Source: Minisyncoccota bacterium
GTDB taxonomy: Bacteria > Patescibacteriota > Minisyncoccia > UBA6257 > JAGOQP01
NCBI GenBank assembly: GCA_041661795.1
Contig: JBAZTS010000002.1
Location: 36,263 to 100,262 of the forward strand
Direction of reading: 5' to 3'
DNA: 64,000 bases
Part shown: one piece after another, positions 22,068 to 58,280 of the stretch
Numbering within the stretch: the first letter of the stretch is position 1
How the letters are laid out: each line of letters starts with the position of its first letter
Program-made: the position numbers and the translations under genes
The notes under the pieces: model-generated
What the model was told of the DNA's origin: nothing
The model's database searches: none
What the model saw: the letters and a program-made list of their open reading frames with translations, nothing else

Positions 22068-22073
22068 CTTAAA

Positions 22074-22428
22074 AGATAAGTGAGTGATTGCCCTGACATT
22101 TGTTGGGGAGGAAAGTCCGGACTCCCATCTCCGACGTAACGTCGGAGTAAACGTATTCGCTAACAGCGAACTATCGCAAGATAAGAGGTGCGAACAGAGA
22201 CGAGTCCTAATGGAAACATTAGGGGTGAAACGGTCCCGACGCCTATTTCGGGTTAGGGACTCCGACATCCGCAAGGATCGTCGGAGCTAAATCCTTGCGG
22301 GGTGCAAGACCGTATCCGCCCAGGGCGGGTGAGTCGCTTGAACCTGAGAGTAATTGAAGGTCCAGACAAATAATCACTATCCCGACGTAACGTCGGGACA
22401 CAGAATCCGGCTTATAGCTTATCTAAAC
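22074..22428 (+). ncRNA. rnpB: RNase P RNA (bacterial type A)
   Basis: GGAGGAAAGTCCGGACTCC (P4 5' strand), AGGGGTGAAACGGT, ACAGAATCCGGCTTATAG (P4 3' strand), P1 pairing agataag/cttatct; GC-rich versus surroundings. Confidence 0.85.
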
Positions 22429-22500
22429 ATATCAAGAATCTCTCCTTAACGGGGGGATTTTTGATTGATTTATTAAGGGTTTTTTGATACTTTTAACAAG

Positions 22501-27781: not shown

Positions 27782-27852
27782 TGGGAGATCGTCTAATGGT
27801 AGGACAGCGGCCTTTGAAGCCGTGAATCGGGGTTCGAATCCCTGTCTCCCAG
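27782..27852 (+). tRNA. tRNA-Gln (anticodon TTG)
   Basis: U1-A72 acceptor pair, anticodon loop CTTTGAA, T-arm GGGTTCGAATCCC, discriminator G. Confidence 0.85.
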
Positions 27853-27856
27853 CAAT

Positions 27857-28315
27857 ATGAACATTGTAGATAAGGCCGAATTGTTTGCTAAAGAAAGATA
27901 TTTAGCAAACGACCCAATTCATCAGTGGAGACATATTCAGAATGTAATGGAAAGGGCTCTTTTGATTGCTCAGAATTTTGATGACATTGATTATGAAACT
28001 CTTAAGTTAGCAGTAATTTTTCATGATATAGATTATCGGTCATATGATACACATGTTGATGCAAGCGCAAAAGTTGCAGAGAAATTTCTAAGTGAGAATA
28101 ATTATCCTAGGGAAAGAATTAATAGGGTGAAGGAAGTTATATTTGATCATTCAACGCCACATCGCGAAAAACAAGGAGAAGCGGAGTCTTTAGAAGGAAA
28201 GATAATTTATGATGCGGATAAATCTATATTTATCACTGACAAAAAAACGTACGATAAATATTATCCAAAATTATATTTAAAAGAAACCAAAAATTTGGTT
28301 GTTATCTATAAATAA
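27857..28315 (+). CDS. HD-domain phosphohydrolase
   Basis: H..RH...V...A..IA ... AVIFHDIDY ... DADK. Confidence 0.7.
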   Translation: MNIVDKAELFAKERYLANDPIHQWRHIQNVMERALLIAQNFDDIDYETLKLAVIFHDIDYRSYDTHVDASAKVAEKFLSENNYPRERINRVKEVIFDHSTPHREKQGEAESLEGKIIYDADKSIFITDKKTYDKYYPKLYLKETKNLVVIYK

Positions 28316-28414
28316 ATTATTAACCAAGACGCGTCGGGGTTTTTGTTGGAATGTATTTAAAAAAGCTTTATAATACTTACGTATTCTAGTCCTAAACTGG
28401 AATACACCGTAATT

Positions 28415-28918
28415 ATGACAAATAAAATATCACATGATAGTGAAACTTTAGCTGATGGACAGCAGGTTATAACTGCTTGTGCTTTTATCCATCAAAAATT
28501 TAATGGAATTGAAAAAGTTTTTTTACCAAAAAGAGCAACGACAAAAAAGTTTTTGCCGGATGTATATGAACTGCCTGGTGGTCACATTAACTACAGAGAA
28601 GATATTGTTGACGGTCTTAAGCGTGAAATAATGGAGGAATTTAATATGAAAGTAAGAGTTGGTGATCCATTTGCTGTCTTTACATATAATAACGACATCA
28701 AAAAATCTCATTCTATTGAAGTTATTTATTTTGCTGAGTTTTCCGATCCAATAGAAAATATCAAGATTCATCCGGAGGACCATTCTTGTTTTGATTGGGT
28801 TGGAGAGAACGAATTGGATAAAGTTTATACAGAGAATAAGAAATCCGATGACCCGGAAATGCAATCTATACAAAAAGGATTTAAAATTCTAAACGGAGAA
28901 TCGCCAGCGTTTAATTAA
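28415..28918 (+). CDS. NUDIX hydrolase
   Basis: Nudix box LPGGHINYREDIVDGLKREIMEEFNMKV. Confidence 0.7.
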   Translation: MTNKISHDSETLADGQQVITACAFIHQKFNGIEKVFLPKRATTKKFLPDVYELPGGHINYREDIVDGLKREIMEEFNMKVRVGDPFAVFTYNNDIKKSHSIEVIYFAEFSDPIENIKIHPEDHSCFDWVGENELDKVYTENKKSDDPEMQSIQKGFKILNGESPAFN

Positions 28919-28920
28919 AT

Positions 28921-29634
28921 ATGAAAAACATCAAAACAAAAAAGCAGAGTTTAAAAAAAATTGGTCCTGACCGCATGACCACAGAGGGGAGAAAAAAATT
29001 CTTTGGTTTTTATAAAACTAATAGATCAAGAGCTCTAATAGGTTTTTTAAAGGATATTGCAAAAAGCAAGACCAACAGAAAAAGAATTTCTGCTTATTTA
29101 GGAAATAGAGAAAAAATAAACTGTTTGATTATGGGTTGTTCACATTGGGCTAATCCTAGAGACACGGCGAATTTTTTGAAAAGTTTTAATAAAAATTTAA
29201 ATATTAATCTTGCGGTTCTGGACGTATTACCCGATGCTCTTTTGGAAAGTGTTAGACATAATATTGATTGTTTGCCCATCATAACTCCCGCGCAAAAAAC
29301 TCCGTTTTTGGATAATTATTTTGATATTATAATCTGTGACTGTCTTTTGACTTGTTGTAGTTTTGACCAGCACGAACCAGTAATCAAAGAAATGAGTAGG
29401 GTCATAAAAAGAAAGGGTCTACTTATACTGGGAATTGTGCATTCTAAACGTAATATCACTTTTAAAATGACGGAACGACCTATTGTGAACTATTGCAGAC
29501 CGTTTAAGGATTATCAGAAACTTTTTGGTAAATATAACTTCATATTTCCGCCAAACTCTTCGGTTGAAACGCAACTTCCGGGAAAATGGAGCCAGATGAA
29601 AATCGCAAATGGTATTGTGATCAAGAGAAAATAA
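28921..29634 (+). CDS. Putative SAM-dependent methyltransferase-like protein (divergent)
   Basis: Rossmann-like CLIMGCS..., FDIIICDCLL, IKRKGLLILG; weak. Confidence 0.35.
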   Translation: MKNIKTKKQSLKKIGPDRMTTEGRKKFFGFYKTNRSRALIGFLKDIAKSKTNRKRISAYLGNREKINCLIMGCSHWANPRDTANFLKSFNKNLNINLAVLDVLPDALLESVRHNIDCLPIITPAQKTPFLDNYFDIIICDCLLTCCSFDQHEPVIKEMSRVIKRKGLLILGIVHSKRNITFKMTERPIVNYCRPFKDYQKLFGKYNFIFPPNSSVETQLPGKWSQMKIANGIVIKRK

Positions 29635-29648
29635 TTAAAAGATTCGTT

Positions 29649-29900
29649 ATGTTCTTTGTTTATATTCTCAAATGCTCCGATAAATCTCTTTACGTAGGAT
29701 GTACCAATGACCTTGAGAAGAGATTAAAACAACACAACGAGTCAAAGCAGGGAGCGCATTATACTAAAATCAGAAGGCCGGTCACGTTAAAATATTCTCA
29801 AAAATTCAGGACTCTGGCTCAGGCAAGAAAAAGGGAAGCCGAAATAAAAACATGGCGCAGAAGCGAAAAAATTAAATTAATAAATTCTATAAAAAAATGA
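29649..29900 (+). CDS. GIY-YIG nuclease-family small protein (UPF0213-like)
   Basis: FFVYILKCSDKSLYVGCTNDLEKRLKQHN; start taken at MFFVYIL. Confidence 0.7.
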   Translation: MFFVYILKCSDKSLYVGCTNDLEKRLKQHNESKQGAHYTKIRRPVTLKYSQKFRTLAQARKREAEIKTWRRSEKIKLINSIKK

Positions 29901-30015
29901 TTATCCTTGGCCGTATCCCGCGTTAGCGGGTAGACTACAACAACGAAATGTTCACCCCCTGACATTTTTATAAAAATTTATGAGGGTTAACAAAGTGATA
30001 TAATAAGAATTAAAT

Positions 30016-30579
30016 ATGAAAAAGGTTTTATTATTACCAGGGTGGATGAGAACTCTTAGATTATACAAAGCTCACAATGATTTTGATGTGCGCATAGGAA
30101 AACTAGATGATGAATCTGTACTAGCTGATTATGTTATTGGTTTGAGTTTGGGAAGTTTAGCTGTATTGCAACAAGTTGAAAGTATCAAAGGAAAAATAAT
30201 TTTAATAAATCCTCCTCTTCCAAAAAAAAGCATTCTAATTTGGTTTGTTAACTGGCTGAAGTTTATTGTAACCGAGGGTCTATTTTTTGAAAGACAAAAA
30301 TTTACCAGAAATCCGATCAAGTTTATTTCCGCGTTAATTGTCTGTGTAAAATTACTTAATGTAGATTTTTCAAAAACGTTGGACAGCATAAAAGGGCGGT
30401 TATTGATAATTAGAGGAAGAAACGATAGATTTTTCTGTAATGATAAGACTATAAAATTTCTGAGTGCCAGGGAAATTAGAATTATAGAAATTAATGGAGG
30501 ACATAATTGGTGTGAAGAAATAGAAAAAACAATAAACGATCTGACTAAAGACACCGGTTCAGAATTATTGCCAAAGTGA
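30016..30579 (+). CDS. Small alpha/beta-hydrolase-like esterase
   Basis: Nucleophile elbow GLSLGS; C-terminal GGHNW. Confidence 0.45.
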   Translation: MKKVLLLPGWMRTLRLYKAHNDFDVRIGKLDDESVLADYVIGLSLGSLAVLQQVESIKGKIILINPPLPKKSILIWFVNWLKFIVTEGLFFERQKFTRNPIKFISALIVCVKLLNVDFSKTLDSIKGRLLIIRGRNDRFFCNDKTIKFLSAREIRIIEINGGHNWCEEIEKTINDLTKDTGSELLPK

Positions 30580-30591
30580 TATAATAAACTT

Positions 30592-30903
30592 ATGAGTTTC
30601 ATAAAAAACTACATTAATTATCTGAAAGATAATCCTAATAAATATTGGTTTAAGAGAAAACTGTATGGATGGGGATGGGTGCCGGTTAGATGGCAGGGAT
30701 GGGTTGTTATATTGGCTTTTATTCTTTTTATTGTATTGAGCGGAATGGATATGGAGTCCAATATAACTCCCACAGACGGCCAGTTAATATTGTTTTTTGT
30801 AAAAATTGTTTTATCTGTAGCGGTAGTGATGTGGATTTGCTACAAAACCGGAGAAAAACCCAAATGGCAATGGGGACCGCCTCAAAATTCAAATCAAAAA
30901 TAA
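30592..30903 (+). CDS. Small membrane protein
   Basis: 2 TM, Trp-rich. Confidence 0.35.
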   Translation: MSFIKNYINYLKDNPNKYWFKRKLYGWGWVPVRWQGWVVILAFILFIVLSGMDMESNITPTDGQLILFFVKIVLSVAVVMWICYKTGEKPKWQWGPPQNSNQK

Positions 30904-30906
30904 ATT

Positions 30907-31602
30907 ATGCAAATAAAAATTCTTTCTTGGAATATATGGTGGGATTGTCAATTTGAGCAAGTTGCCGAGTTTTTGAATTCTTCCAATGCCGATATTATCG
31001 GTCTGCAGGAAGTATCTCCAGAGGATAAAAATAGGGATGTTATCGGCTATCTAACAAAACTTGGTTATCAATATGTATTTTCTCCAATTGTAGATATACA
31101 AAACAAAGGTTATAAAAAAGAACCTGTAGGGAACGCTATTTTTAGCAAGTTTGATATCTTAAAAAGCGAAACCCATATTTTGTCTGAAGTGGATAGTAGG
31201 ATTGCCATAGAGGCAGATTTCAAAATAGGAGATAAAGAACTCAATGTTTTCAACGTTCACTTGCTCCATACTCATCAAAATCCATCAGAGATACAAGCTC
31301 TTCAAGCCGAAAATCTTATCAAAATTCTTCCTGATAAAAATACTGTTGTTATGGGCGACTTTAACGCCACACCAGAAAGCGATGCAATAAAAAGTATGAA
31401 CAGTGTTTTAAAAAATGTTGCTGATGATTCAAATCCGACCTGGAGTTTGGATGAGAAGGGTTGCCCTGTGTGTAAGGTGGGGGACTTAAAATATTGTTTG
31501 GATTATATCTTTGTTAGCAAAGATATCCAATCACACTCATTCAAAATCGAAAATCCTAAAGGATCTGATCATTTGCCGATTTCGGTTATGATTGAAATAT
31601 AA
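30907..31602 (+). CDS. Endonuclease/exonuclease/phosphatase (EEP) family protein
   Basis: ILSWNIWW, IIGLQEV, GDFNATPES, GSDHLPI. Confidence 0.75.
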   Translation: MQIKILSWNIWWDCQFEQVAEFLNSSNADIIGLQEVSPEDKNRDVIGYLTKLGYQYVFSPIVDIQNKGYKKEPVGNAIFSKFDILKSETHILSEVDSRIAIEADFKIGDKELNVFNVHLLHTHQNPSEIQALQAENLIKILPDKNTVVMGDFNATPESDAIKSMNSVLKNVADDSNPTWSLDEKGCPVCKVGDLKYCLDYIFVSKDIQSHSFKIENPKGSDHLPISVMIEI

Positions 31603-31640
31603 GAATTTTGTCATATCTTAAAACAGAGTCAAAAATAAAA

Positions 31641-32186
31641 ATGGAAAAAATAACTCACCAGGGGAAAATAATAGAAGTTGTTCAAAAAGAAGTTGAGCAA
31701 AACGGGAAAGTTAAAACTTTTGAATTTGCGCGCCGTTCTCCCGGGACACGTCTGATTATCCCAAAGGAGGACAAAATTCTCTTGTCAAAAGAATTTAGAC
31801 ATGAAGTAGAAGGATATGACTACCGTCTCCCGGGAGGGAAAGTGTACGACTCTTTGGAAGAATACAATTTGGCTCTTCAATCGGGTGTGGATATTGGCGA
31901 AATGGCAAAAAAGGCGGCCATAAAGGAAGCGCGAGAAGAAACCGGAATTGAAATAAAAGATATTTCATTTATACATAAGTCGGTTTGCGGAGCAACTGTG
32001 GTTTGGGATTTGTTTTATTTTGTTGTAAACGACTTTAGTGAAACATCCAGACAGTTGGAGGATGGCGAAGATATAGAGGTTGAATACGTTTCTCGCGACA
32101 AAGTGAAAGAGATGTGTCTAAACGGAACAATCGGAGAGGAGCGATCCGCCCTTGTTTTGATTAGATATTTGGGTGGTGGATTCTAA
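31641..32186 (+). CDS. NUDIX hydrolase (ADP-ribose pyrophosphatase-like)
   Basis: PGGKV....AA.KEAREETGIEI Nudix box; start taken at MEKITHQG. Confidence 0.7.
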   Translation: MEKITHQGKIIEVVQKEVEQNGKVKTFEFARRSPGTRLIIPKEDKILLSKEFRHEVEGYDYRLPGGKVYDSLEEYNLALQSGVDIGEMAKKAAIKEAREETGIEIKDISFIHKSVCGATVVWDLFYFVVNDFSETSRQLEDGEDIEVEYVSRDKVKEMCLNGTIGEERSALVLIRYLGGGF

Positions 32187-32236
32187 AATGACTATTATAG
32201 AGCTTGTGGAGGTCCAATGTTAGTAGATAAAGATTT

Positions 32237-32863
32237 ATGAGTAAAGAACTATCACATAAAGAAATAACAGACTATTTCCGATCTAATATTTATGAGGCTA
32301 TTTCTTCATATAATGCTTGGAAAATGTTGTCGTATTCTAAATCTAATAAAGTGGTTTCTGATGATATGGCAAAAAGATATCTTGAAATACAAAATTACCA
32401 TCCGGGATTTTTTGCGACAGCAGAGCGTGCCTTTTTAGTTGATTTTGTGATTATGTCACTACATCCATTTGACCACAGAGATGATTCTTATTCACTTTAT
32501 AAAATAAACAAGGAAGATACAGAAGATTTTATTAATAACAATGAGAGTGTGGTAGCCGCTTTACGGAATTTAAGGAATAAACTTTTTGCACATAGAGATG
32601 CTGATATAAATAATACAAAAAACTTAATAATTCCTTCGGTTGTTAATCAAAATAAATATTTTGAAAATTTAATTGATTTTTATAATAAGCTTACTTCTGT
32701 GGTTGACGAGTCATCAACAAATTTCGTTAATGCGAAGGAGATTAAATTAGATATAGAGAATTTATTTATGAATTTATATCGAGGCGAGGCTATTAGGAAA
32801 AAACAAATTGATATTGAATGGTTGTGGGAGAAAGACAATAAAAAAGCTTCAGATATTTTATAA
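32237..32863 (+). CDS. HEPN-domain protein, Abi-like (AbiD/AbiF/AbiU2-type RN..AH motif)
   Basis: LRNLRNKLFAHRD = R-x5-H with RN pair; alpha-helical composition. Confidence 0.4.
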   Translation: MSKELSHKEITDYFRSNIYEAISSYNAWKMLSYSKSNKVVSDDMAKRYLEIQNYHPGFFATAERAFLVDFVIMSLHPFDHRDDSYSLYKINKEDTEDFINNNESVVAALRNLRNKLFAHRDADINNTKNLIIPSVVNQNKYFENLIDFYNKLTSVVDESSTNFVNAKEIKLDIENLFMNLYRGEAIRKKQIDIEWLWEKDNKKASDIL

Positions 32864-32865
32864 AT

Positions 32866-33309
32866 TTGATGAATTTAAATAAAATCCAAGAATTCGCTAA
32901 AAAGATATTAAGAAATTCAACTAAGACAAAGAATTCTTTGTCTAGCTTGGCAAAAGATAATTGTAGTGAACTGACTAGATTAGTGGGGTGTTTTATTCTA
33001 AAATCACAAAGTGGAGTTACTGTATATGTGTTAAAAGGGGACAGAGTTTTTGGTAAGAAACAATCTCATGATATATTGGCTTTACATGATAAAAACGGGG
33101 TTTTTGTTATAGACCCATCCGTTTGGCAGTTTTTTCCAAACAAGAAGAGTATTCTTATATCCAACAGTAAGAATATAAAGGACGCTATTAAATCAGCAGA
33201 AAAGATATATGGCGGAAAGTGGAAAGTATCCGAAAAACTGTCGCTGAAGAAATGTTTGAAAAATCAAAAAAAGTGGATTTCTGTCATCCGTAAAAATAAT
33301 CAAAAATAA
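32866..33309 (+). CDS. Hypothetical protein, 3-nt spaced partner of HEPN gene
   Basis: 147 aa, Lys-rich, no family recognised; operonic spacing. Confidence 0.4.
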   Translation: MMNLNKIQEFAKKILRNSTKTKNSLSSLAKDNCSELTRLVGCFILKSQSGVTVYVLKGDRVFGKKQSHDILALHDKNGVFVIDPSVWQFFPNKKSILISNSKNIKDAIKSAEKIYGGKWKVSEKLSLKKCLKNQKKWISVIRKNNQK

Positions 33310-33311
33310 TC

Positions 33312-33878
33312 ATGAAAACAGCCGTAATCATTCACGGGAGTCCGACTAAAAAAGAATATTTTACACGCAAGAAACCAAGTCAGTCCAATAAACACTGGTT
33401 GTCCTGGATACAAAAAGAACTCAATTTGAAAGGTATTCTTGCTCAAACTCCTGAATTTCCGGAACCCTACAAACCTGTTTACGAAAAATGGTGTTCTGTT
33501 TTTGAGCAATTCAAAATTGATGAAAACACCATGCTTATAGGTCACAGCTGTGGCGGGGGATTTTTGGTAAGATGGCTAAGTGAAAACAAAGTAAAAGTTG
33601 GAAATGTAGTTTTAGTAGCTCCTTGGATAGACCCAAATCATTATTTAAAAACCAATTTTTTTGATTTTAAAATAGACCCAAATTTAGCGAAAAGAACCAA
33701 AAAGCTGATCATTTTTGAATCCAATAATGATTTTAAAGAGATACAGAAAAGCATTGATATATTAAGAACCAAGCTAAAAGGCGCCAATTTTAAAAAATTC
33801 AAAAATATGGGGCACTTTATATCAAGTAGTATGAAAACCGACAAATTTCCTGAATTATTGAAAGAGCTTATAAAATGA
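33312..33878 (+). CDS. Serine hydrolase of YdeN/RBBP9 alpha/beta family
   Basis: MKTAVIIHGSP..; GHSCGG nucleophile elbow. Confidence 0.55.
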   Translation: MKTAVIIHGSPTKKEYFTRKKPSQSNKHWLSWIQKELNLKGILAQTPEFPEPYKPVYEKWCSVFEQFKIDENTMLIGHSCGGGFLVRWLSENKVKVGNVVLVAPWIDPNHYLKTNFFDFKIDPNLAKRTKKLIIFESNNDFKEIQKSIDILRTKLKGANFKKFKNMGHFISSSMKTDKFPELLKELIK

Positions 33879-33891
33879 AGTATATAAAAAT

Positions 33892-34470
33892 ATGAACAAA
33901 TTATTTGATAAAAACAAAACTGCGTTAGTTATTATTGATCTTCAAAAAGGAATAATAAACCGACAAACTTATCCACGTAAATCTTCCGTTGTTGTCTCAA
34001 ATGCCACTAAATTAGCCGACGTATTCAGAGAAAATTCTATGCCTGTATTTTTGATTCGGGTTACTGCATCTCCAGATATGAAGGATGGCTTAAAGCCAAT
34101 TACTGACAGTCCGACTGGAACGGAAAATAAAAAAGATCCTGATTGGGCGGACATTGTTTCGGAGCTCGTTCCAAAAGAAGACGATTTTGTAATAACTAAA
34201 AGGCAATGGGGTGCTTTTTATAACACAGAGCTGGATCTTCAGCTAAGAAGACGTAAAATTGAAACCATTGTGCTTTGTGGCATTTCAACTAATATCGGAG
34301 TAGAAAGCACGGCTAGATTTGCCTATGAGTATGGCTATCAGCAAATTTTTGTAGAAGACGCTATGGCATCAGGAAAATCAAAAGAAGAACACGAAGCAAC
34401 AATAAAGTATATTTTTCCAAGAATAGGGCGTGTACGAAAAACCGACGAGATTATCAATGAGTTTAAGTAA
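33892..34470 (+). CDS. Isochorismatase-family cysteine hydrolase
   Basis: KTALVIIDLQKG; CGISTNIGVESTAR catalytic Cys region. Confidence 0.75.
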   Translation: MNKLFDKNKTALVIIDLQKGIINRQTYPRKSSVVVSNATKLADVFRENSMPVFLIRVTASPDMKDGLKPITDSPTGTENKKDPDWADIVSELVPKEDDFVITKRQWGAFYNTELDLQLRRRKIETIVLCGISTNIGVESTARFAYEYGYQQIFVEDAMASGKSKEEHEATIKYIFPRIGRVRKTDEIINEFK

Positions 34471-34515
34471 ATTACATATAAAAATTTATGAAACGGGTTA
34501 TTATAGTCCATTGTT

Positions 34516-35196
34516 ATGCTGAATAAGATATTTAATAGAATCCCCAAACTTCCATTATCCGCTTTAATATTTTATTTGGTTGTTCTTTTGTTTTGGAAAC
34601 TTGGTATTATTCCCAGCCCAGCCAATGCCCTTACCTTTCTTGAGGGGTTGTATGAATCTTACGGATTGGTAGGTCTTTTTATTGCTTCGTTTCTTGAGGG
34701 AGTAGTTTATCTTGGGCTTTATTTCCCTGGTTCTTTTATAGTTGCTTTGACGGTTATTTTGTCCAACGGTTCGTTTCTGTCCTTGCTTTCCATAAGTTTG
34801 GTCGTAGCTTGCGCGCTAACCATAACTTCTCTGATTAATTATCTTATTGGAAAAAGCTTAACCAAAAATAAACCAAATAGTAGTTCGTTGACAGTCAACA
34901 AACAAATTGTATCTAAAGGTTTAGTCGCTTCTATGCTACACCCCAATTCTCTGGCTTTTTATTTTTTAAACTTGGGAATAAAAAAGGAAAATTTACTAAA
35001 AATAGTATTTGTTCCTATTTTTATGACTCTTTACGGTCTTGCTCTGGGGTACCTGCTTTATTCAGTAAAAGAACCTCTAAAAAGAGCGGCCGATAGTCCC
35101 TACGCTCTTATAACCTTAATTTTTATCTGGATAATAATCGCTTTTATCGTGGAGAGTCGCAGAAATAAAGATCTTGAGAAAGATAAACAATTATAA
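34516..35196 (+). CDS. DedA-like membrane protein
   Basis: LFIASFLEGVVYLGLYFPGSFIV. Confidence 0.55.
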   Translation: MLNKIFNRIPKLPLSALIFYLVVLLFWKLGIIPSPANALTFLEGLYESYGLVGLFIASFLEGVVYLGLYFPGSFIVALTVILSNGSFLSLLSISLVVACALTITSLINYLIGKSLTKNKPNSSSLTVNKQIVSKGLVASMLHPNSLAFYFLNLGIKKENLLKIVFVPIFMTLYGLALGYLLYSVKEPLKRAADSPYALITLIFIWIIIAFIVESRRNKDLEKDKQL

Positions 35197-35201
35197 AACA
35201 T

Positions 35202-35921
35202 ATGAGAAGCATACTAATCAAATCTATTAACGGCAGAAAAATGCCTCTTGTTATGGCGCATATGGGGGGATTGTCTCATGGGAGACCAAATTCCATTCAA
35301 GCTATTAGAAATAGTACAAAATACAATCCTGACATATTTGAAATTGATGTTAGAAAAAGCAGAGACAATATTCTTTTTTGTCACCATGGTTCTTTGCCAT
35401 TCGGTATAATATTTTCTCAAATCCTCTTTCTCTTTCGGTTCAATTTTATAGTTAAATTGCTTGGACAGATAAATACTCTTGATGAGATATTGGAAGCTAT
35501 TCCCCAAAACATTATTGTGTATTTGGATATAAAAAGCGGTTATATTACAAGTGATGACTTATTGAAAGTTATTAACAAATATCCAGCTCATCAAATATGG
35601 ATGGCTGCATATAACTTGAATTATTTAAAAAGATTGCGCGCAAAACTCGGAGAGAATTATGTATATGTTTTTAATCGTCCCATAGTTTTCTTAAATCACT
35701 TTTTAAACAACTCAAAAGGCATTGCTGATATTGTTCAATTGTTTATATGGCAGTGGAAAGAGCGTGTTGTCCAAAAAGTAAACAGTAACGGTATTGAAGT
35801 TCATTTGGCTCACTGGTTCGTTCCTCTGTCCAGAAAATATATAATTGGTAAGAAATATAATAATATATGGCTCACTTATGATGATCTTCGTTTGACACAA
35901 ACATCAAAGCAACTTTCTTAA
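35202..35921 (+). CDS. Glycerophosphodiester phosphodiesterase-like (GDPD) protein
   Basis: VMAHMGG...PNSIQAI..S..Y..DIFEIDVR.S.D..LFCHHG. Confidence 0.5.
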   Translation: MRSILIKSINGRKMPLVMAHMGGLSHGRPNSIQAIRNSTKYNPDIFEIDVRKSRDNILFCHHGSLPFGIIFSQILFLFRFNFIVKLLGQINTLDEILEAIPQNIIVYLDIKSGYITSDDLLKVINKYPAHQIWMAAYNLNYLKRLRAKLGENYVYVFNRPIVFLNHFLNNSKGIADIVQLFIWQWKERVVQKVNSNGIEVHLAHWFVPLSRKYIIGKKYNNIWLTYDDLRLTQTSKQLS

Positions 35922-38168: not shown

Positions 38169-39272
38169 CTATTTTAGATTCTCTATTATAGCTATCTCAA
38201 AGGGCACCAAGGGGAAAGGATTGTATTTCATTTGGGAGTAGGCGGTGATGAGCGCTTTTATAAGTTTTATCTGCTCGTCCGTATCTATTTTAGCCGAATG
38301 TTTTTTTATTTCTTTTATTTGGCTTTCGGCCAATTCCTTTTCAAATATCTTTTCCAGTTCCGGATTAAGATGTAAAGAAAGAACCCTTCTTAAATATTCT
38401 GTCAGATCTTTGTTAAATTGAAAAAGATTGTATCCCTGACTGTTTATTTCGTATAAAAATTCCAGCGACTTTTGTAAGTCCTTTTTTATGACCAAATCGG
38501 CCATTTTTATTGTTTTTAGAAAATCAACTTTTCCCAAGATGCTTTCCACGTATTCAACGGTAATATTCTTGCCCTTCATGGAAACAATCTGGTCAAAAAG
38601 AGATTCGGCATCTCTTAAACTTCCTTCAGCTAAAAAGGCAATCATTTCCAAAGCTTCTTTTTCGTATTCTACTTTTTCTTCTTTGGCGATAAATGAAAGT
38701 TTTTTTATAATCTCCTGTAGTGTCAGCTTTCTAAAATGAAATCTCTGGGTTCGGGAAACAATAGTGGGAGGGAGCTTGTCGTATTCGGTGGTGGCTAATA
38801 TAAAAACGGCATGGGCTGGCGGTTCTTCTAAAGTTTTTAAAAGAGCGTTAAATGCCTGTGGAGTGAGCATGTGAACTTCATCTATGATAAAGATTTTGTA
38901 TTTAAGATAAGAGGGGAGTGTTTTTATGTTTTCTTTGAGATTTCTTATTTCATCTATTCCTCGGTTGGAAGCGGCGTCAATTTCAACGACATCCAAAGCT
39001 CTGCCTTCTTCAACTTGTAAACAGGCGTGACATTCTCCACAGGGCTCTCCTTGCTTGGCAAAGTTTTCGTCCTCTTGTCTTTTCTGGCAGTTAATTATTT
39101 TGGAAAAGATTCTGGCGATAGTTGTTTTGCCGGTTCCTCTTGAACCGTAGAAAAGATAGGCATGAGAAATTTTACCTTCCTTAACTGAATTTTGAAGTAT
39201 GGTAACCGTATTTTCCTGACCGTAAATATCAGCAAGTTTTTTTGGTCGGTATTTTCTATAAATAGCTAACAT
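38169..39272 (-). CDS. dnaX: DNA polymerase III subunit gamma/tau (short form)
   Basis: GSRGTGKTT Walker A, Zn module CGECHAC, DEVHML box. Confidence 0.9.
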   Translation of the reverse strand: MLAIYRKYRPKKLADIYGQENTVTILQNSVKEGKISHAYLFYGSRGTGKTTIARIFSKIINCQKRQEDENFAKQGEPCGECHACLQVEEGRALDVVEIDAASNRGIDEIRNLKENIKTLPSYLKYKIFIIDEVHMLTPQAFNALLKTLEEPPAHAVFILATTEYDKLPPTIVSRTQRFHFRKLTLQEIIKKLSFIAKEEKVEYEKEALEMIAFLAEGSLRDAESLFDQIVSMKGKNITVEYVESILGKVDFLKTIKMADLVIKKDLQKSLEFLYEINSQGYNLFQFNKDLTEYLRRVLSLHLNPELEKIFEKELAESQIKEIKKHSAKIDTDEQIKLIKALITAYSQMKYNPFPLVPFEIAIIENLK

Positions 39273-39278
39273 ATCAAT

Positions 39279-39309
<31 letters not shown>

Positions 39310-39334
39310 TAAAGAGCTATGAAATAAAAAAAGC

Positions 39335-39900
39335 CCGCCGGTGTCTTCCGAGGAAGTCCTGGCGGGGTGGAACAGGTGGTGCGACCTTAGCTCACTCGGT
39401 GCTGTCGAGTTCGCTCGCCCGATATACTCTCCGGGTGATACGAGAGCTCGAATCTGCCGAGACGTGACGCGTGGTCACTTTTTGCTAAGGTTTTTTGGGG
39501 TGCTGCTCCTCTTCCTGTTCGGTACTTTCTAAGAACGGTTCCCACACCGTTCTCGCCGGCGAGCTTAGCTCGCGCAGGGTAGAGGCGCCTCCTAAAGGAG
39601 GCAAAACATGAGTACAAATTCGGAATTGGATTTTTGTGAGTTTCCGGACTCACTATCTCGTTTGGTGCACCTCCCGAGAAGTCCTTTTCCTTCCACTTAT
39701 TATTGGGCCAGTTTGAGATCAGCGGTGGACACTCAAACTGTTTGCGTGCTTTCACCGAGCTTGCCGGATTTACTCGGATCTTTGGTGAGATGGCGCAACC
39801 CCACAGTTTTGACCTCCCTCAGCTGCGCGCGCAACTGAGTTGTCAGCTCACCTAGTGACAGAGGCCCCCTTTTTGACCGTTTTTTCTTCTTGGTCCGGAA
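39335..39900. ncRNA. GC-rich structured non-coding locus (one or two ncRNAs; minus-strand terminator at 39335-39378); identity unresolved, SRP RNA candidate by position upstream of dnaX
   Basis: GC content far above flanks, no protein-like ORF, multiple stems (gtttgag..ctcaaac, ccgag..ctcgg), ccccgccagg...ccggcgggc + T7 on minus strand. Confidence 0.35.
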
Positions 39901-54871: not shown

Positions 54872-54962
54872 CAAAACAAGTTTCGAAACCGCTTCACTGC
54901 CGTGAACAACACTACAGAAAGAGCGGTCGGAGCACTGCTCTTTCACAGAAAGGGGAACTTCG

Positions 54963-55361
54963 ATGAGTGGGATCGCTTGGTTTTTCGAGGTGTTCGCTCT
55001 GCTGTTTTTCGTGGGGACTCTGGGCGTTGCTTTCATCGGACGCCGCATCCTCAAGGCGGAGCAGGAGTCGTCGGTTCTGATGTCTTTCCTCCAGATCTGC
55101 AGTGGAGCGCTCTTCATCTTCTACGTTTTCGGACTGGGTCAACTCATGGCTCTGTCTGGACTGGAAGGTGCAAGGGCGCCCCGGTGGCTGATTCCGGGCA
55201 CCTACATCACTCTCACCATCTTCAGCGCGTTGACTCGGCTGGCTCTTCCAAGGTGGGGCAGTGACAACAAAGCGATGCAACTCTGGAGTGTCGTCAGCGT
55301 CCTGACGTTCCTACTCGGCACGTTCTGCCTCGGGGCGTACTCGTCCAACTACTTCGAGTAG
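54963..55361 (+). CDS. GC-anomalous (foreign-looking) 4-TM membrane protein, unknown function
   Basis: 132 aa, GC3-rich codons in an AT-rich genome, AGGGGA RBS, own terminator. Confidence 0.6.
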   Translation: MSGIAWFFEVFALLFFVGTLGVAFIGRRILKAEQESSVLMSFLQICSGALFIFYVFGLGQLMALSGLEGARAPRWLIPGTYITLTIFSALTRLALPRWGSDNKAMQLWSVVSVLTFLLGTFCLGAYSSNYFE

Positions 55362-55385
55362 GTCTCCTTCTTCAGCTCTTCAACT

Positions 55386-55421
55386 GGCGGCGTCTCTCAC
55401 GAGGCGCCGCACTGCTTTTTA
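55386..55421. terminator. Bidirectional terminator (gcggcgtctc tcac gaggcgccgc + T-run)
   Basis: GC stem between GC-rich gene and uvrC 3' end. Confidence 0.6.
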
Positions 55422-55467
55422 TATGGTTATAAAATTTATATAAATTTCCCCGTCAATATAAATCCGC

Positions 55468-57306: not shown

Positions 57307-57417
57307 AGGGAGTATATATGATTAAGAATATTAAATAATTATCATAGAGTTATTATGATTATAGATTGATTTTATCGTTTTAATTAAAGAGTGCCTTATA
57401 AATTAGCACGGACCGCT

Positions 57418-57570
57418 TTATGGGCGGTCCGGGATGGGTGGAGCGGGTGCGGGCTTGACCACTTTGGCCACGAGGCCGATTAATATGGTCAGCATTGAAA
57501 CGGGTACTACGGTGGCGATGATGACGGACGATTCCACCACCACCAGAGACCACTTGACTAGGTAGTGCAT
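57418..57570 (-). CDS. GC-rich tiny membrane protein (50 aa, MHYLVKWSLVVVESSVIIATVVPVSMLTILIGLVAKVVKPAPAPPIPDRP)
   Basis: AAAGGAGG SD; overlaps upstream ORF stop; followed by hairpin cggaccgc...gcggtccg. Confidence 0.4.
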   Translation of the reverse strand: MHYLVKWSLVVVESSVIIATVVPVSMLTILIGLVAKVVKPAPAPPIPDRP

Positions 57571-57689
57571 TCAACCTCCTTTCTTCTGAGAATCTTGGTG
57601 ATCCACAGATAGAGGTTGTATCCTGTTTGAATAACGTGGGCCATCTTTTGGCCCAGTATTGTCGTCCGATGAAACGTTGTTGTAGACAT
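57558..57689 (-). CDS. GC-rich tiny protein (43 aa, MSTTTFHRTTILGQKMAHVIQTGYNLYLWITKILRRKEVECTT)
   Basis: AAAGGAGACGTG-ATG SD; same frame as C-terminal part of listed ORF 57558-57860. Confidence 0.35.
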   Translation of the reverse strand: MSTTTFHRTTILGQKMAHVIQTGYNLYLWITKILRRKEVECTT

Positions 57690-57703
57690 CACGTCTCCTT
57701 TGG

Positions 57704-57949
57704 TTAGGCGATGGCGCCGGGGTATTCTTCGGAGATCTTCTCGATCTCTTTTTCCTCTTTCTTCACTTGGTCTGTGAGCACAAGGAAGAAAAAGATGATG
57801 GCCATGATTCCCACAAGAGTGGCAAAGGCCCATGAAAAGCTCTTGGGGAGTTGGAACCATCGTGATAAGTGATATCCTCCAAAAGTGAGAATTACCACGG
57901 CCACGGTCGCTCCAACTTTACGGAGCAAGTTGAGTAGTCCCGGGAACAT
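57704..57949 (-). CDS. GC-rich small membrane protein (81 aa, 2 TM)
   Basis: AGGAGG SD 6 nt upstream; hydrophobic helices. Confidence 0.5.
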   Translation of the reverse strand: MFPGLLNLLRKVGATVAVVILTFGGYHLSRWFQLPKSFSWAFATLVGIMAIIFFFLVLTDQVKKEEKEIEKISEEYPGAIA

Positions 57950-58193
57950 TACTCTCCTCCTTTTTGGTGTACATCTTTCGAAGTTTCTCCTGTAGAGCGT
58001 TGAGCCCCGTGAAGACCAGGGCTCCGGTCAGAAACCCGATACAAGCCAACGATCCTCGGATCTCCAATCCTGGAGGCAGTGGAACTCGGTCTGCCCATAG
58101 GACCGTGAAGAAACAGGAAGCAGCAGTTGAAAGGCCAACGAAAGTGAACCAAACCACTCTTGCGATCAACTCCAGAACTTTTCCGATTTTCAT
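57918..58193 (-). CDS. GC-rich small membrane protein (91 aa, 2-3 TM)
   Basis: GGAGGA SD 8 nt upstream; hydrophobic helices. Confidence 0.5.
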   Translation of the reverse strand: MKIGKVLELIARVVWFTFVGLSTAASCFFTVLWADRVPLPPGLEIRGSLACIGFLTGALVFTGLNALQEKLRKMYTKKEESNVPGTTQLAP

Positions 58194-58280
58194 GCTCTGA
58201 TCCTCCTCTGTTTTTCACATTATAATAATCATTGAATTTTGTCCATGTTTGATTTAGAATAACCCTTTGGTTGGCATTTT

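What the first reader, a model, noticed from the sequence alone, without database searches (positions are those of the whole stretch)
32237..33309. HEPN (RN..AH) Abi-like gene with a tightly coupled unknown partner inside a hydrolase-rich accessory island
The 208-aa protein carries LRNLRNKLFAHRD, i.e. the R-x4-6-H HEPN RNase motif with the RN pair characteristic of AbiD/AbiF/AbiU2-type abortive-infection proteins. The next gene starts 3 nt later (147 aa, Lys-rich, no recognisable domain). This is a candidate two-gene defence or toxin-antitoxin-like module.
Basis: partly seen in the sequence, partly recalled or inferred. Interest (0 to 1): 0.55.

Follow-up and report, generated by a model that had tools for sequence, protein, structure and literature searches.

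The report
Solo HEPN gene beside unrelated cysteine-enzyme gene
The two adjacent genes are real, but they are a stand-alone AbiU2-type HEPN (predicted RNase) gene and an unrelated small transglutaminase-fold cysteine enzyme gene. They sit together only in this one ultra-small (CPR) bacterium, so they are not a conserved toxin-antitoxin or defence pair.

Summary
Both ORFs exist as described. P1 is 32237-32863 (208 aa, motif RNKLFAH). P2 is 32869-33309 (146 aa, Lys-rich, 2-5 nt after P1). The source is a Candidatus Paceibacterota MAG.

The two-gene module is not supported. Among 25 P1-family loci and 82 P2-family loci, none carries both genes. P1 has no conserved neighbour at all. A gap of 5 nt or less occurs in 21 of 53 same-strand gene pairs in this window, so the tight spacing is ordinary.

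P2 has no sequence-level domain but a clear fold. Its model (pLDDT 97) resembles transglutaminase/papain-like enzymes such as protein-glutaminase, vasohibin and CPR-C4. C32, H67 and D82 are invariant. In about a quarter of related loci, including the closest metagenomic relative, P2 homologues follow a PqqD, radical-SAM/SPASM and roughly 30-aa Cys-peptide cluster. That cluster is absent from this window.

Verdict: two independent accessory genes placed side by side by chance. P1 is a new member of a known family. P2 belongs to an unannotated CPR-specific branch of a known superfamily.

The parts
32237..32863 (+). P1: 208-aa stand-alone HEPN_AbiU2-like protein, a predicted metal-independent endoribonuclease
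32573..32593 (+). Codons for R113-N-K-L-F-A-H119, the R-x5-H HEPN catalytic motif of P1
   Evidence: R113, F117, A118 and H119 are invariant in 30 homologues of 39-67% identity to P1. The motif lies inside the stretch that matches Pfam HEPN_AbiU2 positions 108-179.
32869..33309 (+). P2: 146-aa Lys-rich protein of an unannotated CPR-specific family with a transglutaminase/papain-like fold (alternative TTG start at 32866)
32962..32964 (+). Codon TGT for Cys32 of P2, the predicted catalytic nucleophile at the N-terminus of helix 32-46
   Evidence: Invariant in 45 sequences. Position taken from the DSSP assignment of the model. Codon read from the sequence.
33067..33069 (+). Codon CAT for His67 of P2, the predicted general base at the start of strand 67-74
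   Evidence: Invariant in 45 sequences. Model secondary structure. Sequence.
33112..33114 (+). Codon GAC for Asp82 of P2, the predicted third triad residue at the end of strand 77-81
   Evidence: Invariant in 45 sequences. Model secondary structure. Sequence.
27857..35921 (+). Context: a co-directional, tightly packed array of small, mostly hydrolase genes that starts just after tRNA-Gln (27782-27853). P1 and P2 are two members of the array.
   Evidence: Pfam hits; tRNA; intergenic gaps of 2-115 nt within the array.

Best explanation
These are two functionally independent accessory genes that lie next to each other only in this Paceibacterota genome. Shown: P1 belongs to a CPR-restricted, roughly 200-210-aa subfamily of the HEPN_AbiU2 family. 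Inferred: like other HEPN proteins it probably dimerises to form a composite R113/H119 site and cleaves RNA without a metal. It probably acts as a single-gene conflict or abortive-infection type effector. It has no dedicated protein partner. Its very low GC, sporadic distribution and occasional location beside other conflict genes in relatives fit lateral acquisition. Shown: P2 belongs to a different CPR-specific family of minimal (about 150-aa) transglutaminase/papain-fold enzymes with an invariant Cys32-His67-Asp82 triad. Inferred: P2 is a thiol peptidase, amidase or Gln-modifying enzyme acting on a peptide or protein substrate. In relatives the likely substrate is the product of an adjacent PqqD, radical-SAM/SPASM and precursor-peptide (...C-x-x-A-G-C-Q-G-K) cluster. 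Here P2 is an orphan copy sitting among other small hydrolases. The 2-5 nt gap between P1 and P2 reflects the general gene packing of this genome, not specific coupling.
For: Co-occurrence: none of 25 P1-family loci (20 with at least 500 nt downstream) and none of 82 P2-family loci (70 with at least 700 nt upstream) contain both genes, by tblastn and by HMM search. Nearest P1 relative: P0002 (69% identity) is followed by an unrelated 143-aa gene (hhalign probability 0.3%). Nearest P2 relatives: P0078 and P0079 (63% and 59% identity) are preceded by unrelated genes (hhalign probability 0.2%) and followed by ABC transporter genes. P1 neighbours share no family across loci, apart from one pair of closely related contigs. 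Spacing: 21 of 53 same-strand pairs in the window are 5 nt or less apart. P1 identity. P1 relatives lie next to an Mrr endonuclease, CBASS Cap15 and a CD-NTase fragment, and a GHKL ATPase and an RHS/Ntox44 toxin. P2 identity. P2 linkage to rSAM: 12 of 53 loci with enough upstream DNA carry it. A conserved roughly 30-aa peptide ORF is found in 16 loci. The linked P2 homologues are only 33-86% identical to each other (median 41%). They include the window's closest metagenomic relative, L016, at 60% identity.
Confidence: 0.75

Rival explanations
1. P1 and P2 form a lineage-specific two-gene toxin-antitoxin or defence module. P1 would be the HEPN RNase toxin or effector. P2 would neutralise it, or would process or activate it proteolytically.
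For: The two genes are on the same strand with a 2-5 nt gap and no terminator between them. P1 has the HEPN catalytic motif. P1 and P2 are among the lowest-GC ORFs in the window (0.287 and 0.311), so they could have arrived together. P2 is basic (pI 10.2) and P1 is acidic (pI 5.8).
Against: No locus out of 25 plus 82 holds both families, and the closest relatives of each gene lack the other. Forty per cent of same-strand pairs in this window are equally tight. P2 homologues keep a different conserved linkage, to rSAM/PqqD/peptide clusters and ABC exporters. Lactococcal AbiU2 was not toxic in E. coli (Dy et al. 2014, PMC3985639), so the family does not obviously need an antitoxin.
Confidence: 0.07
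2. P1 is a toxin controlled by a non-protein partner, for example a type III RNA antitoxin or a small upstream leader ORF, and P2 is irrelevant to it.
For: P1 has no conserved protein partner. A 7-codon uORF with a GGAGG site lies at 32217-32240 and ends in an ATGA overlap with the P1 start (read).
Against: There are no tandem repeats and no Rfam family around P1. The uORF and Shine-Dalgarno arrangement is absent upstream of 18 homologues.
Confidence: 0.05
3. P1 is a catalytically silent or regulatory HEPN-fold protein with a housekeeping role in CPR bacteria, such as RNA binding or processing, rather than a conflict-system effector.
For: The family is strongly conserved (39-67% identity to P1) across several CPR classes at constant length. 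Many loci have housekeeping neighbours, for example a ribosomal protein operon, prfB/ftsX and DNA pol III delta. There are no hits in viral, phage or plasmid collections. AbiU2 was not toxic in E. coli.
Against: R113 and H119 are invariant, which argues for catalysis. The gene is rare: 14 loci were found among 185,579 species-representative genomes with a pattern-limited scan. It has the lowest GC in the window. Several relatives lie next to Mrr, CBASS, GHKL or RHS toxin genes.
Confidence: 0.13

Closest known systems
HEPN_AbiU2 (Pfam PF18734), typified by AbiU2 of the Lactococcus lactis AbiU abortive-infection locus (Anantharaman et al. 2013, PMC3710099)
   Same: P1 matches the profile over the helix that carries the conserved Rx4-6H motif and the helix after it. 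It is all-helical, small and single-domain.
   Different: Only profile positions of about 105-189 of 193 align, and the N-terminal half is family-specific. The window protein falls 1 bit under the gathering threshold. There is no Sel1-repeat or R-M operon partner of the kind listed for AbiU2 in that paper, and no AbiU1-like gene. The family is CPR-restricted, and no PADLOC AbiU model matches.
HEPN toxins of HEPN-MNT toxin-antitoxin systems (PDB 7ae2, 5yep, 8xdj)
   Different: There is no sequence similarity. No MNT nucleotidyltransferase gene lies next to P1 here or in any relative. P1 is about 70 residues longer.
[quoted passage not shown]
   Different: Sequence identity is 11-15%. P2 matches no Pfam family and no PDB sequence. 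P2 is a minimal 146-aa domain with no pro-peptide and no signal peptide.
CPR-C4, a cysteine protease family conserved in the Candidate Phyla Radiation (PDB 7pjo; Cornish et al. 2022, PMC9108980)
   Different: CPR-C4 is 216 aa and uses a Cys-His-Leu(carbonyl) triad with a Zn site. P2 has an invariant Asp as its third residue. A profile search of PDB sequences gave no hit to it at E up to 10. They are separate families.
Leader peptidases and tailoring enzymes of radical-SAM RiPP clusters, for example papain-like C39 peptidase domains of bacteriocin exporters
   Same: P2 homologues sit directly after PqqD, rSAM/SPASM and a short Cys-containing peptide gene, or next to rSAM and ABC exporter genes.
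   Different: There is no sequence match to C39 or to any curated RiPP family. The linkage is seen in only about a quarter of loci and not in this window. The role is inferred from context only.

Membership tests
HEPN_AbiU2 (PF18734) | Score at or above the Pfam gathering threshold (26.8 bits) | tested here: inconclusive
   The window protein scores 25.8 bits, E=8.4e-6, just below threshold. Six of 10 homologues score 27.0-40.7 bits, and 29 of 30 match at E<0.01. At family level the feature is met.
HEPN_AbiU2 (PF18734) | Conserved Rx4-6H catalytic motif | tested here: met
   R113-x5-H119 is invariant in 30 sequences.
HEPN_AbiU2 (PF18734) | All-alpha HEPN fold | tested here: inconclusive
HEPN_AbiU2 (PF18734) | Genomic association with Sel1-repeat, R-M or AbiU1 genes | tested here: not met
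   None of these genes is in the window. Among relatives, one locus has Mrr and one has a Dam methyltransferase with CBASS parts.
HEPN_AbiU2 (PF18734) | Phage-resistance phenotype or RNase activity | not testable with these tools
   This needs an experiment.
AbiU defence system as modelled in PADLOC-DB 2.0 | Match to the PADLOC AbiU profile | tested here: not met
   No AbiU hit for the window protein at E up to 10, nor for any of 30 family members at E up to 0.1.
Type II toxin-antitoxin or two-gene defence module (P1 + P2) | The gene pair is conserved as neighbours across genomes | tested here: not met
   None of 25 P1-family loci and none of 82 P2-family loci hold both genes.
Type II toxin-antitoxin or two-gene defence module (P1 + P2) | Toxicity of one gene neutralised by the other | not testable with these tools
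   This needs an expression assay.
Transglutaminase-like / papain-fold cysteine enzymes | Alpha+beta core fold shared with solved members | tested here: met
Transglutaminase-like / papain-fold cysteine enzymes | Cys at a helix N-terminus, followed by His and Asp on successive beta-strands | tested here: met
   C32, H67 and D82 are invariant in 45 sequences. They lie at the start of helix 32-46, the start of strand 67-74 and the end of strand 77-81. The three-dimensional geometry of the triad was not measured.
Transglutaminase-like / papain-fold cysteine enzymes | Sequence-profile match to a curated family of the clan | tested here: not met
   No Pfam or NCBIfam hit for P2. None of the 120 listed homologues has a precomputed Pfam domain. 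No PDB sequence hit.
CPR-C4 family | Cys-His-Leu(carbonyl) triad and detectable sequence homology to CPR-C4 | tested here: not met
   The third residue in P2 is an invariant Asp. The A3 profile does not hit 7pjo at E up to 10. CPR-C4 features are taken from PMC9108980.
Shedu SduA (DUF4263) | Significant profile match and nuclease fold | tested here: not met
   Only a weak PADLOC hit, E=0.0032, 15.3 bits. The fold search gives cysteine-enzyme folds, not nucleases.

The most novel reading that the evidence does not exclude
P2 represents an undescribed, CPR-specific family of minimal transglutaminase-fold Cys-His-Asp enzymes. Its native job would be to process or modify a new class of radical-SAM-matured peptides, by leader cleavage or by deamidating or cross-linking Gln. 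The precursor is about 30 aa, with an M-K-x-F-x-K-P-x-I-V leader and an invariant C-x-x-A-G-C-Q-G-K C-terminus. The copy in this window would be an orphan paralogue. A more remote possibility (about 5%) is that it has been recruited here as a lineage-specific regulator of the neighbouring HEPN RNase.
Probability: 0.3. Interest if true: 0.55.

Novelty: new member of a known kind. Interest (0 to 1): 0.3.

Why it matters
The proposed new HEPN toxin-partner module does not exist as a conserved unit. This removes a false lead and shows that tight spacing in streamlined CPR genomes is weak evidence for functional coupling. Two modest positives remain. First, an AbiU2-type HEPN subfamily that is absent from PADLOC's defence-system models is widespread but sporadic in CPR bacteria. 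Second, the 'domain-less' partner belongs to a CPR-only family of very small transglutaminase-fold enzymes that is repeatedly linked to an uncurated radical-SAM peptide cluster. That linkage gives a concrete, testable handle on peptide natural-product chemistry in organisms that cannot be cultured.

Tried and rejected
1. PADLOC scans of P1 and of 30 family members gave no AbiU or other consistent defence model.
2. The weak SduA/DUF4263 hit for P2 (E=0.003) was rejected because the fold search returns cysteine-enzyme folds only.
3. A Foldseek PDB search of the P1 model found nothing significant.
4. Profile searches of PDB sequences with both families found nothing meaningful.
5. NCBIfam and PHROGs gave nothing for either protein.
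6. Viral contigs, GenBank phages and PLSDB plasmids hold no relatives of either protein.
7. I tested whether the different genes next to the closest relatives are remote homologues of the missing partner. The L095 143-aa gene against the P2 profile gave probability 0.3%. The L100 230-aa gene against the P1 profile gave 0.2%. The L100 and L101 upstream genes are also unrelated to each other.
8. A search for a type III RNA antitoxin or any structured RNA around P1 found no tandem repeats and no Rfam hit.
9. The promoter and terminator scan was at chance level and uninformative.
10. The mini-uORF upstream of P1 is not conserved in homologues.
11. A search of the window for the rSAM, PqqD and peptide genes linked to P2 relatives found none.
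12. The literature search found nothing on the peptide motif, and only two archaeal-immunity papers that mention both HEPN and Patescibacteria, which I did not read. Dai et al. 2001 (AbiU) is not held in the library.

Full report
**Observation**

The window holds an ORF at 32237-32863 (+, 208 aa; P1). A second ORF follows at 32866 (TTG) or 32869 (ATG) and runs to 33309 (+, 147 or 146 aa; P2). P1 ends with TAA at 32861-32863, so the gap is 2 or 5 nt. Both proteins are identical to 'hypothetical proteins' WC705_01735 and WC705_01740 of a Candidatus Paceibacterota MAG. The public call for P2 uses the ATG start. The string LRNLRNKLFAHRD is present. P2 is 18.5% Lys with pI 10.2, against a window mean of 9.8% Lys.

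**What P1 is**

- P1 matches Pfam HEPN_AbiU2 (PF18734) at E=8.4e-6 and 25.8 bits, one bit under the gathering threshold.
- It has at least 76 homologues, nearly all 201-235 aa, at 42-69% identity (one 137-aa fragment aside). The named ones all come from CPR/Patescibacteria bins or bins so labelled.
- Of 30 aligned members, 29 match PF18734, with a best E-value of 2.3e-10. Six of 10 tested individually exceed the threshold. The match always covers only profile positions of about 105-189 of 193, which is the Rx4-6H helix and the next helix.
- R113, F117, A118 and H119 are invariant.
- The AlphaFold model (pLDDT 89.9) is all-helical.
- Anantharaman et al. 2013 define AbiU2 as a HEPN family with a conserved Rx4-6H motif, found in operons with Sel1-repeat or R-M genes (PMC3710099).
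- No PADLOC AbiU model matches P1 or any relative.

I conclude that P1 is a divergent, CPR-specific subfamily of HEPN_AbiU2.

**What P2 is**

- P2 has no Pfam, NCBIfam or PHROG match.
- A profile search found 199 homologues. The 120 listed are mostly about 145-165 aa (range 124-183), and none has a Pfam domain or a name.
- An exhaustive profile search of 1.84 billion representative proteins found only 105 clusters, almost all single-domain.
- In a 45-sequence alignment, C32, S33, E34, R37, H67, D68, D82, Q87, Y114, G116 and W118 are invariant.
- The AlphaFold model is very confident (pLDDT 97.4, pTM 0.91). C32 lies at the N-terminus of helix 32-46, H67 at the start of strand 67-74, and D82 just after strand 77-81.
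- This is the transglutaminase/papain-like Cys-His-Asp architecture.
- P2 is not a CPR-C4 homologue. CPR-C4 uses Cys-His-Leu(carbonyl) and binds Zn (PMC9108980). The P2 profile finds no PDB sequence at E up to 10.

**Is it a module?**

I fetched 14 genomic loci with P1 relatives and 80 metagenomic loci with P2 relatives, plus 13 further loci for the closest relatives.

- By tblastn and by HMM search of six-frame ORFs, 25 loci carry a P1-family gene and 82 carry a P2-family gene. None carries both.
- Twenty of the P1 loci have at least 500 nt downstream, and 70 of the P2 loci have at least 700 nt upstream, so the absence is not a contig-end artefact.
- The closest P1 relative with flanking DNA (69% identity) is followed after 14 nt by a 143-aa protein unrelated to P2.
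- The closest P2 relatives (63% and 59% identity) are preceded by genes unrelated to P1 and to each other.
- The immediate neighbours of P1 relatives share no family, except in two near-identical contigs.
- In the window itself, 21 of 53 same-strand adjacent ORF pairs are 5 nt or less apart. The whole stretch 27857-35921 is one co-directional array with gaps of 2-115 nt.
- No terminator or above-chance promoter signal separates or singles out the pair.

**Context clues to function: P1**

- P1 has the lowest GC of the ORFs called in the window (0.287, against a mean of 0.361 and sd of 0.05).
- Its family is rare among species-representative genomes.
- In some relatives it lies beside an Mrr endonuclease, CBASS Cap15 with a CD-NTase fragment and a Dam methylase, a GHKL ATPase, an RHS/Ntox44 toxin and an RNase_T exonuclease.
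- Other loci are housekeeping.
- There is no phage, plasmid or viral-contig relative.
- No RNA-antitoxin-like repeat or Rfam element is nearby.
- Lactococcal abiU2 was not toxic in E. coli (PMC3985639).

The most likely reading is a single-gene HEPN RNase of the conflict or abortive-infection type. This reading is inferred, not shown.

**Context clues to function: P2**

- In 12 of 53 loci with enough upstream sequence, the P2 homologue follows PqqD (PF05402) and a radical-SAM/SPASM enzyme (PF04055 + PF13186).
- Between the rSAM gene and the P2 homologue lies a conserved ORF of about 30 aa, for example MKKAFVKPTIVRRGKPRPHASSCSRAGCQGK at L016 5796-5891. It is found in 16 loci and ends 64-154 nt before the P2 homologue.
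- The linked P2 homologues are only 33-86% identical to each other (median 41%). They include the window's closest metagenomic relative, L016, at 60% identity.
- The closest named relative (Campbellbacteria, 63% identity) sits between an rSAM/SPASM gene, an HExxH protein and an ABC exporter.
- The rSAM enzyme reaches no curated NCBIfam equivalog, and the peptide matches nothing. The motif is absent from the literature searched.
- This points to a peptide-processing or Gln-directed role for the P2 family. That role is inferred.
- The window has no such cluster, so this copy is an orphan among small hydrolases. Two other loci also place a P2 homologue next to a Ser_hydrolase-like or isochorismatase-like gene (L084 and L035).

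**Verdict**

The HEPN call is right and the module is not. P1 is a new member of a known family. P2 is a member of an unannotated, CPR-specific branch of a known superfamily. Their adjacency is best explained as an accident of gene packing. I rate the finding as posed at an interest of about 0.3. The P2-rSAM-peptide linkage seen in related loci is the more promising lead.

Noticed in passing
L016 5796-5891 (also L022, L024, L025/26, L031, L033, L038, L039, L052/53, L068, L086, L089, L091/92): A conserved ORF of about 30 aa (M-K-x-F-x-K-P-x-I-V ... C-[GS]-[KR]-A-G-C-Q-G-K-stop) lies between a PqqD + radical-SAM/SPASM gene pair and the P2-family gene. It looks like a RiPP precursor of an uncurated class. 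The rSAM enzyme reaches no NCBIfam equivalog, and the motif was not found in the literature searched.
   Followed up: partly
L100 4312-5004; cluster c14 in L049, L051, L054, L067: A protein of about 230 aa with an HExxH motif (e.g. VTAHEILHFFFFDY) and no Pfam hit recurs next to P2-family genes. In L100 it overlaps the P2 homologue by 4 nt, within an rSAM/SPASM-to-ABC-exporter gene run.
   Followed up: partly
window 32208-32240: A GGAGG site lies 4 nt before a 7-codon mini-ORF (MLVDKDL). The mini-ORF's TGA stop overlaps the P1 start codon (ATGA). The arrangement is absent upstream of 18 homologues, so it is probably chance.
   Followed up: yes
L008 6620-7279: A 219-aa gene starts 7 nt after the P1 homologue and carries its own R-x4-H string (ALRNSLTH). 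It has no Pfam hit and may be a second, unrelated HEPN-like gene in tandem.
   Followed up: partly
L015 and L016 (same contig Ga0210057_1000089, 176,855 bp): Two P2-family paralogues (56% and 60% identical to the window protein) lie on one contig, and only one of them is rSAM-linked. This suggests that genomes can carry a cluster-linked copy and an orphan copy.
   Followed up: no
window 54900-55450 (+) and 57350-58210 (-): These are GC-rich islands (0.46-0.585) in a genome of about 36% GC. They contain small ORFs preceded by strong Shine-Dalgarno-like sites, for example 54963-55361 (132 aa, hydrophobic). There is no Rfam match at E up to 1, and the fold z-scores are -4.5 and -3.3. They are possibly laterally acquired small membrane-protein genes.
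   Followed up: partly
window 39300-39800 (-): A GC-rich (about 0.52) segment lies just upstream of dnaX (38169-39272, -) and ends in a hairpin plus U-run. It has no Rfam match at E up to 1, a fold z-score of -2.85, and an overlapping 122-aa ORF. It is unclear whether it is an RNA gene or a coding gene.
   Followed up: partly
window 22072-22430 (+); 27782-27853 (+): Bacterial RNase P RNA class A lies at 22072-22430. tRNA-Gln at 27782-27853 lies immediately before the co-directional array of small hydrolase genes (27857-35921). No integrase matched among the array ORFs scanned with Pfam.
   Followed up: partly
L104 2359-3330: A P1 homologue (64% identity) lies about 700 nt downstream of a CBASS-like remnant in a CPR contig. 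The remnant is a 56-aa CD_NTase_C fragment plus a 207-aa Cap15_CD_rec protein, with a Dam-type methyltransferase and a LexA-like gene nearby.
   Followed up: no
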